Source: Tubiluchus corallicola (lineage: Eukaryota > Animalia > Priapulida). Taken from it: 64,000 nucleotides of DNA. Position numbers and translations under genes: made by a program. The stretch covers positions 55,851 through 119,850 of the forward strand of contig JAQGDQ010000645.1 of the NCBI GenBank assembly GCA_030141605.1, read 5' to 3'. This document shows positions 13,001-25,000 of the stretch, piece after piece. The stretch's first letter is position 1, and each line of letters begins with the position of its first letter. The notes under the pieces were generated by a model, which saw only the letters and a program-made list of their open reading frames with translations, was not told the DNA's origin and searched no databases.

Positions 13001-16000
13001 AGGTTGAGCTGATTAAACAAATTTTTGTAAAGGGAGGCCTTAACAGAACCTTGCACAATGGCAAAATTCTGCGTTTAATTAGGGCACATCAGCAAATAGG
13101 AAAACAAGAACGGAGATTATGTTTTACAGTTGGATTGCCATGGAAAGCTAACCGAGAGATGGGAGCGTTAAGTCATAGCGCAAAAACACGAATTATTTTT
13201 CTTTCAATGGAATTTTTTTTGTTTCTTTATTTTAATACGAGCACTTGCCTTCTTTGTATTTCACTATTAAAATCAGCCACAGCGTATAGCAAGGTAATCA
13301 TTCATTGTTACGTGCTTAACTACCAAAGTAAAGCACAGCCGAACCTGGTCAGTAAATAAATAGGTGAACACCGAGTAACAGGGTGGTTTTTAGCGTACAA
13401 AATTGCCTCCTGGTATTTATGCTAGAGAAGAAATTTATTCTTTTAACATGAATAAATTACCTTTACCAATTCATCATCAGGCTCTCGTGCATAAGGAAGT
13501 ATTTTTAACAAGAAGAAAAGTTACGGTCCCGCCACAGTCAACTATGTATATTAAATTTCAAGTGGAAATCACACGTCGCTTTGAAAGTAACTATTAAAAC
13601 ACTGAATGCAAATAAGTTCATCATAACTTTACGATAAGTATTAACCACACCTAAACGCTTTGTAATCAGTAAAATTACTCGAAATTTTTAGACCATTCAA
13701 ATCAATTTCTTCCAATAAACACACCACACATTACTGAGTAATTAAAAGTGTACATACGGTAATGCTGACGAAAATAAAACAATTAGAGCAACCAGATATC
13801 AATTACAGAGAAATTTGTAAATACCAATGGCTAGCTCGCTTATCTCTAGTTACAAACAAATTTAGAAAAAACTGGTTGTTTGTTTCCCACACGTTTCCCG
13901 TTTGCTGACCAGTTGGGTGTAATTGATGCTCTGTAAATTATCCTTGAGATGGGACAATCAATTACTATTCGTAAAAATTCCAGTGTAGGAACTCCTAACG
14001 AGGACACGGTTACACAATGAAGGCAATTAGTAGAGGGTAAAACGTACCTATTTGGCAAACTAAATATACTTGTGTTTGAAACGAGTGCAAAGTTTTTCTG
14101 CCTTTACAATAAACCTCCTTTCTTGCATCTAATATTTGGTTTAAACTTCTAAGCACTTTTGTTTACGGCAACTGACTTTACATAATAAATTACATTACAC
14201 AAGTTCGAAGGTTGTAGGCTACGTTCACACTTGCCGCGAATGTTCACACTAGCTTTTCCTGTCACTGCCATTCGTCTTAAACGGCGACAGAAGCAGCGGC
14301 AAACAGTCTTAACTGTAAATTTGTTCAAACTTAACAAACAAGATTGCGTTATATTTTGTTTATACTCATAACTGTCACCATGGTAACACAACAAATTGGA
14401 CGAATTATTATTTAAGGTTTTGAATGAAACACTTCCGTACTTTCAGGGAGAAAGACAAAAGCAATATGTCTTTCATGTTTTACACAGGTTAGCAACTCTG
14501 TAACGTTCAATAGCAGGATACTTAATGTAGATGATTGTAGCAGGATCGGAATCTAATCCTTTAAGCTGAGAGGCGAAACCGGAAGAGTTATTCTTAGCTA
14601 CGTTCTCCTTCACAGATCCTGCATCAAGAACGTCTAAATTGGCTCCGTAAATTTTCTGTCTGTCACTTATCCATTTATAAACCAAATTTGCTGTTGTTTA
14701 ACTTGCGTCATGACAACTACTGATTTAGAAGAAAACAGCAACGCATCAGGTCATTGTCATTGTCGATTTTGACGCAAAGAACGACACCGAAAACAACAGT
14801 TCTAGAACATATCGTAATTTACCTTTCAAACTTCATAACTCAGCTGGCCACATGGCTCTGACGCCGAATACCCAATTTGCTTTTGTAAATACTAACATTT
14901 GGGGCACCAATCACATCGTTTGCCAAGACATTCCAGCGGGGAATAACCTCTTTTGGTGAAGAAGTGACCACTTATGTGAGTGCGAGAGAAACATTGAAAC
15001 ATTTTCATCCAATGTCCATAATAATGATGAGTCTGGACGAAGAAGTCATCTTTACTCAACATGGTCAACTCGTTCTATAGTTTTGCACCTCTGATACACA
15101 GAGGGGTAACATCTTCCCCCTGTCCATCCGTCAAAACTCAAAGGCAACGACGACTCCGAATCTGCTGAAGCTGGTTAACTAGAGTGACCAGGCAACTGCT
15201 GCATACTTAACCTTTGGCCCAACCAATGTTTTATGAAGAGGGAATGCCCGTGACAAAACAGCCCGTTTGATCAAACCTATGACTCTGCTTGCTGATTTTT
15301 CAATCCTAGTTATATACTTATTCCATTTTAAGTCCTTCATTCATTTCGATTATTTTAATTTCAACTTTAAGAGACTAGTAAGAATGCCAGGCTACCACCA
15401 GAGTGAAAGCAATGACCATTTGGACAGTGGCTACTAAACAACGAATGATTTGGGCACGTGAAAACTTGGGAATGCTGAGTGTGACGTACGATAATTAGCG
15501 AACCACGCGTGCACACTTATCTAGGTCATAGTAAAGAAAGAGCAAAACTGGGAGGCGATCGTAACATTCTGTTCGGTGAACAACGCAGAGAGCGTGTACT
15601 TACCTGCCTTAATCAAAGTGTGATTATCTACGTGTGATAGAAATTATGTGATAGTAACTAGTGACATTCACGCGAGAGTAAAAATAAAAAAGCTGCACCT
15701 TTTTACAAAACAGAATGGCACAAAAGGTAAATGGTAGATAATTAACTAAGATTATAAATATGACGTAGAAATGCACTGATCAAGCTCTGAAGTTTCTCGT
15801 TCATCTGTCTGTCTGCTTGTTTGGTTGGTTATTCGTTTAGCGGTTGACTAACCGAATAGTTTATTGAATGAAATGCGTGAATCATAATTTTAATATAACT
15901 TGTTGTTTGATTAATTAATTGGCTGACTGACTGACTGACTAACTGACGTGCTAAATGATCAAGTGGATTTAACATTGTTTATTAGTTTGTTTATTATTTA

Positions 16001-22000: not shown

Positions 22001-25000
22001 TAGCATGCAATATGATCAAGCATGATTAATTTACGTCTAGTATGCAATATGATCAAGCATGATTAATTTACGTCTAGTATGCAATATGATCAAGCATGAT
22101 TGATCAAACATGATTAATTTACGTCTAGCATGCAATATGATCAAGCATGATTAATTTACGTCTAGTATGCAATATGATCAAGCATGATTAATTTACGTCT
22201 AGTATGCAATATGATCAAGCATGATTAATTTACGTCTAGTATGCAATATGATCAAGCATGATTAATTTACGTCTAGTATGCAATATGATCAAGCATGATT
22301 AATTTACGTCTAGTATGCAATATGATCAAGCATGATTAATTTACGTCTAGTATGCAATATGATCAAGCATGATTAATTTACGTCTAGTATGCAATATGAT
22401 CAAGCATGATTAATTTACGTCTAGTATGCAATATGAACAAGAATGACTAATTTACTTCTAGTATGCAATATGATCAAGCATGATTAATTTACGTCTAGTA
22501 TGCAATATGACCAGGCATGATTAATTTACGTCTAGTATGCAATATGATCAAGCATGATTAATTTACGTCTAGTATGCAATATGATCAAGCATGATTAATT
22601 TACGTCTAGTATGCAATATGATCAAGCATGATTAATTTACGTCTAGTATGCAATATGATCAAGCATGATTAATTTACGTCTAGTATGCAATATGATCAAG
22701 CATGACGAATTTACGTCTAGTATGCAATATGATCAAGCATGATTAATTTACGTCTAGTATGCAATATGACCAGGCATGATTAATTTACGTCTAGTATGCA
22801 ATATGATCAAGCATGACTAATTTACGTCTAGTATGCAATATGATCAAGCATGATTAATTTACGTCTAGTATGCAATATGATCAAGCATGATTAATTTACG
22901 TCTAGTATGCAATATGATCAAGTATGATTAATTTACGTGTAGTATGCAATATGACCAGGCATGATTAATTTACGTCTAGTATGCAATATGATCAAGCATG
23001 ATTAATTTACGTCTAGTATGCAATATGATCAAGAATGACTAATTTACGTTTAGTATGCAATATGATCAAGCATGACTAATTTACACCTAGTATGCAATAT
23101 GATCAAGCATGACTAATTTACACCTAGTATGCAATATGATCAAGCATGACTAATTTACACCTAGTATGCAATATGATCAAGCATGACTAATTTACGTGTA
23201 GTATGCAATATGACCAAGCATGATTAATTTACATCTAGTATGCAATATGATCAAGCATGATTAATTTACGTCTAGTATGCAATATGATCAAGCATGATTA
23301 ATTTACGTCTAGTATGCAATATGATCAAGAATGACTAATTTACGTTTAGTATGCAATATGATCAAGCATGACTAATTTACACCTAGTATGCAATATGATC
23401 AAGCATGACTAATTTACACCTAGTATGCAATATGATCAAGCATGACTAATTTACACCTAGTATGCAATATTATCAAGTATGATTAATTTACATCTAGCAT
23501 GCAATATGATCAAGCATGATTAATTTACACCTAGTATGCAATATGACCAAGCATGACTAATTTATGTGCACCAAAAAAACTTGAACTTTTTAATGCCAAT
23601 CAACTCATCTAATAAATGAAATTAAACTTATGACTGTAGTATGCAATCAGTCATATTTATTCTGTATATAGTAAAGCAACCATTCTGAATACTACAAGTA
23701 ATTTATGTATAACTCTAGGTATGGAGAACCGCTACATTACACAGAAAAATATTACGTGATTAACAAAGACAGACTAGCATACGACCGAGGATATTCCTAT
23801 GGACACCCAAAACCTGGAACACCTCCACCACCGAAACATCTAAAGTACTTCAGTGAATTTGCAAAACAGTACGGTTATGATCGGTACAACGTACCAGGTT
23901 ACAGACCATCTAGCAGACGCAGTGATAGAGTCTATAAGCCGGCTCCACACGATGTTGCCAAATTCAGTGGGTACAGCCTTCGAGATAAACACGCCGAATT
24001 TGGAGTGAAAGATTTGGACGATGTGGAAAGATACGTGAATTCATTTTTTGAGAAAAGGTGAACGTGTGAAGATTTCTGTTTCTCACGTGTATCATTCACG
24101 ACTTAACATGACACACACACTACTGATTCGTGTAAATAAGAACCATGAGTTTAACAAAAGTATTGAATATTTTTTCTTCTGCTTCTCAAGTGATGACTAT
24201 ACTTACTCAAAATTAAGGACTAGCTACCTATTCGAGGTAATTGAAAGTAAAACAAAATGCATTTTAGTCTGCTGTTTTAATGTCAAAGCAATGCAGGTGA
24301 CAAGTACAGAACTATATGATAATAGTGACTGGGTTTCATATGGATATTTCTGGGTGTATATGTGATTCAGATTGGACTGGCATATGGAAGATTTTTCAAA
24401 ACGTGTTGGATGAAGGTTTGAATTGCTGGAAGTCAAACTACAAGTATGATTTTAGTTTTTGCCATATATATGTATTGGTGAAATGTACAATACATCATCA
24501 CTACATGTGATTTGATTAGAGGTGTTTTTATTTAGTACTCATTTTGCAAAGCAATTAAAATTTTGTTTGTCAATTTTCCAATAGAAATTAGGTAAGCATG
24601 TTTTTTACAATAAAAATTTCGCAGGATTTCTGAATTCTGAATTGTTTCACTAAGTCGATGAACCAGTTGGTGAGTAAGTCATGTTAACTCGAATACAAAG
24701 AAGCTTGGAAATCAGTGCAGATTAAAAAACGAACAAATTAGACACTTTTGTTAATTAAAAACTATGCAGATATGAGTAGTTTAGCTCAACAAACAACAAA
24801 AAATAGAAGTCAGTAAAGATTGTTAATAAAACTAAGATTTACAGATGAAATCTTTGATTCTGTCTGTAATCTTTGTTTTATTAGCATTTACAAGAATAGA
24901 TCATAAACCTCTTAGAATCTTGCAGCGAAGATTGCCCCCTCAGTGTTTATGAAAAATGGGCTTATGAAACTACGAACCCCTGAAATGTTACGTTAAAGTA

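What the first reader, a model, noticed from the sequence alone, without database searches (positions are those of the whole stretch)
15715..24061. Hidden antisense nested gene in the 19-kb WDFY3 intron encoding an unrecognised secreted Tyr-rich protein
Seen: four plus-strand exons with canonical splice sites and matching phases join into a 179-aa [182 protein letters not shown]. The ORF track shows only the last exon. The N-terminus has a classic signal-peptide layout split over three exons. The mature part is about 11% Tyr, has no Cys, repeats YDR.Y/GY motifs, and has basic sites (F-G-R, RK, RR, terminal KR). Inference: either a Tyr/DOPA cross-linked structural or adhesive protein (cuticle, tube, shell, egg coat), or a peptide precursor that could release [17 protein letters not shown]. 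I recognise no family. It also explains why this intron is much larger than the others.
Basis: partly seen in the sequence, partly recalled or inferred. Interest (0 to 1): 0.8.

Follow-up and report, generated by a model that had tools for sequence, protein, structure and literature searches.

The report
Orphan secreted-protein gene inside WDFY3 intron
Inside a 19-kb intron of an invertebrate's WDFY3 gene, on the opposite strand, lies what is likely a separate four-exon gene for a small tyrosine-rich protein that is predicted to be secreted, has no detectable relatives, and likely serves as a cross-linked cuticle or egg-coat component; such nesting is common in animals, so only the protein is new.

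Summary
The four exons exist as described and join into a stop-free 179-codon frame with GT-AG introns, antisense in an 18,946-nt WDFY3 intron. Models trained only on this window's WDFY3 support exons 2-4: codon structure z 4.8 combined, acceptors ranked 3, 1 and 34 of 1,070, and a blind parse returns exactly these exons (though one control and a GC-free variant weaken this). Exon 1 (12 nt) is one of several candidates. Transcription and conservation remain untested. Exons 3 and 4, searched separately, have no relatives anywhere. Best reading: a lineage-restricted extracellular matrix protein (11% Tyr, no Cys or Met, 12-nt first coding exon as in insect cuticle genes), probably phenol cross-linked; peptide precursor is the main rival. 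The claimed sequence repeats are not significant, and repeats explain much of the intron's size. A partial match to the cuticle R&R motif (6 of 9, p about 0.01, post hoc) fails membership. The scan holds no look-alike sequence but noted three similar nested secreted orphans in other genomes. Real, modest.

The parts
15715..15726 (+). Probable exon 1, coding part (4 codons; start of the predicted signal peptide); least certain exon
   Evidence: ATG with A at -3 and G at +4; donor 7.5 bits, rank 17 of 1,051; CpG o/e 1.10 upstream and 1.27 downstream against 0.77 in other introns; 1 of 10 candidate phase-0 ATG exons
18547..18597 (+). Exon 2 (17 codons; hydrophobic core of the predicted signal peptide)
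   Evidence: Acceptor rank 3 of 1,070, donor rank 6 of 1,051; only the annotated frame of six scores positive; uncharged core KD11 2.06, reached by 96 of 1,175 (8%) random open mini-exons
18951..19084 (+). Exon 3 (predicted signal cleavage after residue 24 or 26, acidic start of the mature protein)
   Evidence: Acceptor rank 1 of 1,070; donor weak by my matrix (1.6 bits, rank 310 of 1,051) although its intronic part is GTAAGT; codon z 3.3
23719..24061 (+). Exon 4, terminal coding part (Tyr/Pro/Lys-rich middle, amphipathic C-terminal helix, ends Lys-Arg-stop)
   Evidence: Best coding segment of the whole intron, 29.4 bits; codon z 3.1; acceptor rank 34 of 1,070; hydrophobic moment 0.73 at residues 165-175
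24554..24614 (+). Candidate polyadenylation signals (ATTAAA 24554, AATAAA 24609)
   Evidence: First such hexamers after the stop; common in AT-rich DNA, not tested
9200..28145 (-). Host WDFY3 intron, 18,946 nt, in the WD40 region
   Evidence: Flanking exons 28300-28146 and 9199-9107 join in frame; tblastn with six WDFY3 proteins leaves no coding gap needing an exon inside
19610..23564 (.). Two tandem arrays (35-nt x 25 and 37-nt x 76) filling most of nested intron 3
   Evidence: Tandem Repeats Finder; they end 155 nt before exon 4
16515..18023 (.). Inverted-repeat element (about 290-nt arms, 87% alike) and a 21-nt array in nested intron 1

Best explanation
Three exons with coding and splice-site signal, and a probable 12-nt first exon, likely form an independent gene transcribed antisense within the WDFY3 intron, whose product is predicted to be a secreted 18-kDa protein that likely acts as a structural component of an extracellular hard layer (cuticle, or egg coat), where its tyrosines and lysines would be cross-linked by phenol oxidation. 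Shown: the exons, the open frame, the coding bias, one hydrophobic segment at the N-terminus only, the composition. Inferred: transcription, splicing, signal-peptide cleavage after residue 24 or 26. Inferred from analogy only: matrix location and cross-linking chemistry. The nesting itself is most likely neutral: a long intron housing an unrelated, tissue-specific gene.
For: Gene: (see observation check). Secretion: KD11 peak 2.1 at residues 7-17, at most 0.2 after residue 27; two basic residues before it, Pro at -6 and small residues at -3/-1 (layout rule from my own knowledge, no SignalP here). Matrix role: 11.1% Tyr (WDFY3 3.3%; p 3e-5 at 3.5%), 9.8% Lys, 8.5% Pro, 7.8% Gly, close to the schistosome eggshell precursor p19 (11.6% Y, 9.6% G), a tyrosinase-cross-linked protein (PMC3499410, passages). 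No Cys and no Met in 153 residues (p 1e-3 at WDFY3 frequencies); both are 'virtually absent' from mature Anopheles CPR cuticle proteins, which average 169 residues and whose genes mostly have the signal peptide interrupted after a first coding exon of median and mode 12 nt (PMC2259329, passages and section 11). A highly polar cuticle protein that is laccase cross-linked exists (TcCP30, PMC4440208, abstract). Residues 68-102 match 6 of 9 positions of the basic R&R pattern (recalled pattern; p 0.009 in 10,000 shuffles, 0.014 with local shuffles).
Against: No homolog, so no function can be transferred. Gly+Ala is 11% against 19-20% in CPR proteins, and Lys+Arg 17.6% with Asp+Glu 15% is unusually charged. 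No internal repeat (p 0.50), no aromatic triad, no PF00379 hit, and the R&R match misses two core positions and was found post hoc. A short first coding exon is 'not unique to CPR genes' (PMC2259329). Three dibasic sites and a terminal Lys-Arg suit a processed precursor. For the gene itself: 1 of 4 control intron blocks outscored the blind parse (85.6 against 78.8, built on a GC-rich repeat), and a periodicity-only parse was not significant and chose a different chain. The host taxon is unresolved in my tree, so 'cuticle' rests on other agents' unchecked notes that the genome is priapulid-like.
Confidence: 0.48

Rival explanations
1. The gene is real but encodes a peptide precursor: prohormone convertases would cut at the basic sites and release a 12-residue amidated N-terminal peptide, an 86-residue middle piece and a 44-residue C-terminal peptide with an amphipathic helix.
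For: Signal peptide, no Cys, Gly-Arg at 39-40, Arg-Lys at 45-46, Arg-Arg at 132-133, terminal Lys-Arg at 178-179; amphipathic helix at 162-177. Priapulid neuropeptide complements are thinly known: 25 families found by HMMs in one species (bioRxiv 10.1101/2024.07.20.604414, passages).
Against: Arg40 is monobasic with no basic residue at P2-P8 (rule of thumb recalled); only one Gly-basic site; no repeated units; no Pfam hormone family at E up to 10 for five sub-stretches and no peptide hormone among PDB matches; with 17.6% Lys+Arg three dibasic sites are unremarkable; a donor at 24057 (6.9 bits) could remove the terminal Lys-Arg.
Confidence: 0.2
2. The gene is real and its product is a soluble secreted effector of another kind (mucus, gland, gamete or antimicrobial protein), not cross-linked into a matrix.
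For: Net basic middle region (residues 77-151, +8), Pro-rich stretch, amphipathic tail, pI 9.0; fast-evolving secreted proteins often lack homologs (own knowledge).
Against: Nothing specific points to it; no Cys scaffold, acidic N-terminal part, whole-protein net charge only +4.
Confidence: 0.18
3. There is no living gene: the exons are a chance chain, a decayed gene or a mobile-element relic in a repeat-rich intron.
For: Exon 1 is one of 10 candidates and one donor scores weakly; one unrelated open frame in the same intron has an equally high codon z (3.5); periodicity-only parse not significant; the intron holds other relics.
Against: Three phase-compatible, stop-free segments with WDFY3-like codon structure on one strand, in the order signal core, cleavage site, hydrophilic body; the parser used no hydropathy yet chose exon 2; acceptors rank 1 and 3 of 1,070; no repeat interrupts an exon; no transposon, phage or plasmid protein matches.
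Confidence: 0.14

Closest known systems
Nested (intronic, opposite-strand) genes of animals, e.g. Drosophila 2mit in timeless2; Mab21l2 in the BEACH gene LRBA (PMC3786989, passages)
   Same: Whole coding sequence inside one large intron, opposite strand, own introns, no evident functional link to the host; LRBA is a BEACH-domain host like WDFY3.
   Different: Those nested genes have orthologs and transcripts; this one has neither shown. No paper on a nested coding gene in WDFY3 was found (1 paper, on LRBA; 5 listings on blue cheese, titles and abstract starts only).
Arthropod CPR cuticular proteins with the R&R consensus, Pfam PF00379 (PMC2259329, passages and section 11; PMC12426002, passages)
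   Same: 12-nt first coding exon with an intron in the signal peptide, similar mature length (153 against mean 169), no Cys or Met, 8.5% Pro, partial match to the basic R&R pattern.
   Different: No PF00379 hit, no aromatic triad, two core positions missing, Gly+Ala 11% against 19-20%, far more charged.
Low-complexity cross-linked cuticle proteins without R&R (TcCP30, PMC4440208, abstract; CPLCP, rich in Pro, Lys, Val, Tyr, PMC12426002, passages; GGY-repeat BmCPG1, PMC2542385, passages)
   Same: Secreted, polar, Cys-free, Tyr/Lys/Pro-rich; candidates for phenol-oxidase cross-linking.
   Different: No sequence similarity was shown (these proteins were not aligned here; searches returned none); no GGY or other repeats.
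Schistosome eggshell precursors p14, p19, p48 (PMC3499410, passages)
   Same: Tyr and Gly content close to p19 (11.6% Y, 9.6% G); small secreted precursors cross-linked by tyrosinase.
   Different: Composition only; host is outside the flatworm clade in my tree; no homology found.
Bilaterian neuropeptide precursors (46 families modelled in NP-HMMer, bioRxiv 10.1101/2024.07.20.604414, passages)
   Same: Signal peptide, basic sites, one possible amidation signal, terminal Lys-Arg.
   Different: No family motif recognised by Pfam or PDB searches; the NP-HMMer models could not be run; its supplements were not seen and may hold priapulid precursors that bear on this.

Membership tests
Nested antisense gene | Whole coding sequence inside one intron of a host gene, opposite strand | tested here: met
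   15715-24061 (+) lies within WDFY3 intron 9200-28145 (-)
Nested antisense gene | Coding and splice signal beyond chance | tested here: met
   Exons 2-4 combined z 4.8; blind parse above all 100 shuffles but below 1 of 4 intron controls; exon 1 not testable
Nested antisense gene | Spliced transcript from the opposite strand | not testable with these tools
   No run holding the stretch was listed
Nested antisense gene | Frame conserved in related species | not testable with these tools
   No genome held; no related eukaryotic locus retrieved
CPR (R&R) cuticular protein | Pfam PF00379 match | tested here: not met
   No family for exon 3, exon 4 or sub-stretches; the joined protein was not scanned, so an extended domain spanning exons 3-4 could be missed
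CPR (R&R) cuticular protein | Basic R&R pattern (9 positions, recalled) | tested here: not met
   6 of 9 at residues 68-102, p about 0.01 post hoc; second Gly and the Tyr before Ala missing
CPR (R&R) cuticular protein | Aromatic triad Y/F-x-Y/F/W-x-Y/F at the start of the extended consensus (PMC2259329) | tested here: not met
   No triad; the paper allows a diad in 4 of 156 genes
CPR (R&R) cuticular protein | Signal peptide interrupted after a short first exon; Cys and Met scarce | tested here: met
   12-nt exon 1 (itself uncertain); no Cys or Met; typical, not diagnostic
CPR (R&R) cuticular protein | Chitin binding and cuticle location | not testable with these tools
   Needs binding assay and proteomics
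Neuropeptide precursor | Signal peptide | tested here: met
   Hydropathy and -3/-1 layout; SignalP not available
Neuropeptide precursor | Convertase sites flanking peptides, amidation signal | tested here: inconclusive
   Three dibasic sites; one Gly-Arg without upstream basic residue
Neuropeptide precursor | Known family motif or repeated peptide units | tested here: not met
   NP-HMMer models not run
Phenol-cross-linked eggshell or adhesive protein | High Tyr with Gly/Lys, no Cys | tested here: met
   11.1% Tyr, 7.8% Gly, 9.8% Lys against p19
Phenol-cross-linked eggshell or adhesive protein | DOPA or dityrosine in the native protein; co-expression with tyrosinase, laccase or peroxidase | not testable with these tools
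   Needs biochemistry and expression data

The most novel reading that the evidence does not exclude
This is a cuticle protein of a priapulid-like worm that carries only the C-terminal half of the arthropod R&R chitin-binding motif together with the CPR-type 12-nt first exon: a divergent or ancestral relative of the CPR family outside arthropods, too remote for Pfam, which would push the origin of that motif back to the moulting animals' common ancestor.
Probability: 0.06. Interest if true: 0.7.

Novelty: new member of a known kind. Interest (0 to 1): 0.3.

Why it matters
If real, it is an unannotated-type gene that annotation would miss (tiny exons, antisense, repeat-filled introns) and a candidate building block of the cuticle or egg coat of a poorly sampled animal group; my searches found no paper that holds 'priapul' with the chitin_bind_4 domain name and none of the 12 listed for priapulid/cuticular protein/chitin-binding mentions priapulids. 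It gives a concrete proteomics target. It does not show a new mechanism: nested genes and orphan secreted proteins are both common.

Tried and rejected
No whole genome is held, so paralogs were sought only in the window (none). Homology, always exon by exon, never with the joined protein: exon 4 against 5.8 billion proteins, lengths 62-198, 0 hits at E 0.1; exon 3, lengths 78-2,000, 0 at E 1; exon 4 against 1.84 billion representatives, 0 at E 0.001; Pfam 0; PDB best E 0.16 and 0; plasmids 0 and phages 1 at E 0.4; PHROGs 0. The 2 metagenome and 3 viral loci are 8-residue chance matches: L001 and L003 are phage DNA polymerases (L004 and L005 give the same match statistics as L003 and were not opened), L002 is a frame opposite a bacterial gene. 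ESM Atlas hits for exon 4 (0.96, plasmid Rep_1 on 21% of members, recognition 1,653, below the 2,300 mark) rejected: no Pfam, plasmid or phage support. AlphaFold2 on exon 4 alone, no alignment: mean pLDDT 38.9, uninformative, so no fold search was run. First gene-parse test had too low a penalty and did not separate real from control (95.3 against 34.6-99.5); redone. One search timed out; redone. A 28-residue repeat that I thought I saw was not significant. A recalled resemblance of the C-terminal helix to NPY/NPF was rejected: no amidation signal there and no Pfam or PDB match. Extra exons: best candidates between exons 3 and 4 or after the donor at 24057 score at most 11.2 bits against 22-29 for exons 2-4. 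Rfam: nothing in the intron at E 0.1. Host taxon: quick tree of 41 rows (40 of the 120 proteins) leaves the window in an open group with annelids, molluscs, an echinoderm and vertebrates, outside the arthropod, nematode, flatworm and rotifer groups; no priapulid row was available. Literature blanks.
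Full report
Observation. They join with phases 0, 0, 2 into 179 codons and a stop, with GT-AG at all three introns. The mature part after residue 26 has 153 residues, 17 Tyr (11.1%), and no Cys, Met or Trp.

Host gene. tblastn with six WDFY3-type proteins and manual boundary choice give 21 minus-strand exons that join into 1,594 residues without a stop; Pfam finds Beach, PH_BEACH and WD40, and the best named hits are WDFY3. 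The intron 9200-28145 is 18,946 nt; the other 19 mapped introns are 119-3,238 nt. So the candidate is wholly nested and antisense.

Is it more than chance? I trained a codon-position Markov model and splice matrices on this window's WDFY3 only. For exons 2, 3 and 4 only the annotated frame of six scores positive (+4.1, +14.4, +24.5 bits), and exon 4 is the best coding segment of the intron, exon 3 the fourth. Against base shuffles kept open in frame, z is 1.4, 3.3 and 3.1, combined 4.8; 11 of 12 other long open frames of the intron have z at most 1.2, one (14476-14697, minus) has 3.5; 8 WDFY3 exons left out in turn have 0.6-3.7. Acceptors rank 3, 1 and 34 of 1,070 AG sites, donors 17, 6 and 310 of 1,051 GT sites (matrices rest on 21 sites). 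A blind search for the best three-exon chain returns exactly exons 2-4 at 78.8 bits; 100 local shuffles give mean 46.1, maximum 64.9; the minus strand gives 58.0; four blocks of other introns give 54.0, 65.0, 65.3 and 85.6, the last built on a GC-rich 5S-linked repeat. Against: a GC-free, periodicity-only version was not significant (105.8; shuffle maximum 108.1; 2 of 4 controls higher) and chose a different chain, and an earlier version with too low a penalty did not discriminate. The parser used no hydropathy, yet exon 2 encodes an uncharged core that only 96 of 1,175 random open mini-exons reach. I put the gene at about 86% real. Exon 1 is less sure (about two in three): 10 upstream donors give a phase-0 ATG exon; this one has a good start context, supplies a basic n-region and sits in CpG-rich DNA. 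A donor at 24057 could bypass the stop, but no downstream exon scores above 11.2 bits.

Protein. One hydrophobic segment (residues 7-17, KD11 2.1), nothing above 0.2 after residue 27; cleavage after 24 or 26 fits the -3/-1 rule (own knowledge); mature mass 18.1 kDa, pI 9.0; acidic start, basic Tyr/Pro-rich middle, amphipathic C-terminal helix; basic sites at 39-40 (Gly-Arg), 45-46, 132-133 and 178-179. There is no significant internal repeat (p 0.50 in 300 shuffles); Gly-Tyr/Phe occurs 5 times against 2.2 expected (p 0.046). No relatives were found for exon 3 or exon 4 in any collection; the five loci from pattern scans are chance matches. The joined protein was not searched remotely, and the host's group is thinly sampled, so 'orphan' means only 'none found'.

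Host animal. A quick tree (41 rows) leaves the window unresolved among annelids, molluscs, an echinoderm and vertebrates, with 71-73% best identity, and outside arthropods, nematodes, flatworms and rotifers; no priapulid was in the set. Other agents' notes on this genome call it priapulid-like; that is an unchecked lead, and my tree neither supports nor excludes it.

Mechanism. I commit to a secreted structural protein of an extracellular hard layer, cross-linked through Tyr and Lys (0.48). Reasons: Tyr and Gly content close to the schistosome eggshell precursor p19 (PMC3499410, passages); absence of Cys and Met, length, and a 12-nt first coding exon as in Anopheles CPR genes (PMC2259329, passages and section 11); precedent for polar, cross-linked cuticle proteins (PMC4440208, abstract) and tyrosinase cross-linking of a Tyr-rich one (PMC2542385, passages). 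Residues 68-102 match 6 of 9 positions of the basic R&R pattern (recalled; p 0.009, or 0.014 with local shuffles), but the test was post hoc, two core positions fail, there is no aromatic triad and no PF00379 hit: it may work like a cuticle protein but is not filed as a CPR. Gly+Ala (11%) is below the CPR mean of 19-20% and the charge is high. Rivals: peptide precursor (0.20), weakened by the lone Arg40, the single amidation signal and the lack of repeats or family motifs, though priapulid peptides are thinly known (bioRxiv 10.1101/2024.07.20.604414, passages; supplements not seen); other soluble secreted protein (0.18); no living gene (0.14).

Intron size. The gene spans 8,347 of 18,946 nt, and 5,136 nt of that are tandem or inverted repeats; repeats make 6,757 nt (36%) of the intron. 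The nested gene is thus a part, not the whole, of the explanation.

Novelty. Nested genes are about 6% of genes in Drosophila and 2.1% in C. elegans, often antisense, regarded as largely neutral, and the BEACH gene LRBA hosts Mab21l2 (PMC3786989, passages). My searches found no paper on a coding gene nested in WDFY3 (listings only) and none joining priapulids with the chitin_bind_4 name. The scan has no look-alike sequence and no note near this place, but three notes of the same kind in other genomes. Verdict: likely real, new member of a known kind, interest 0.3; the bold reading (a remote R&R relative outside arthropods) has about 6% probability.

Noticed in passing
window 6125-6589 and 48500-49056, minus strand: Two copies of an element made of a full-length 5S rRNA (Rfam 79 and 92 bits) followed by a 350-450 nt GC-rich body, about 90% alike where aligned, in two WDFY3 introns: a 5S-headed SINE-like repeat or stray 5S rDNA units.
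   Followed up: partly
window 14473-14697, minus strand: A 74-codon open frame with codon structure as strong as the nested exons (z 3.5; 24.3 bits), no Pfam or Atlas match. Could be a mobile-element relic or an exon of a second nested gene; a perfect minus-strand donor 9-mer lies at about 15603.
   Followed up: partly
window 14840-15340, minus strand: Broken frames that resemble, from recall, the C-terminal end of a CR1/L2-type LINE reverse transcriptase; no Pfam hit, so the label is recalled and untested. It ends about 370 nt upstream of the nested gene's start.
   Followed up: partly
window 12100-13360, plus strand: Open frames of 128 and 138 codons with a recalled resemblance to Penelope-like elements; no coding bias and no useful Pfam hit.
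   Followed up: partly
window 27817-28188: A 108-nt tandem repeat (3 copies) overlaps the end of the WDFY3 exon 28300-28146 and duplicates its last codons and donor site into the intron.
   Followed up: no
window 29115: WDFY3 intron 29115-28301 begins with GC, a GC-AG intron; the frame joins correctly only with it.
   Followed up: yes
window 16515-17785: MITE-like element with about 290-nt inverted arms, 87% alike, in nested intron 1; a smaller inverted repeat lies at 9753-10012.
   Followed up: no
window 59277-59633, minus strand: Open frame with a weak DDE_1 match (E 0.024, below the curated cut-off): probable DNA transposon relic.
   Followed up: partly
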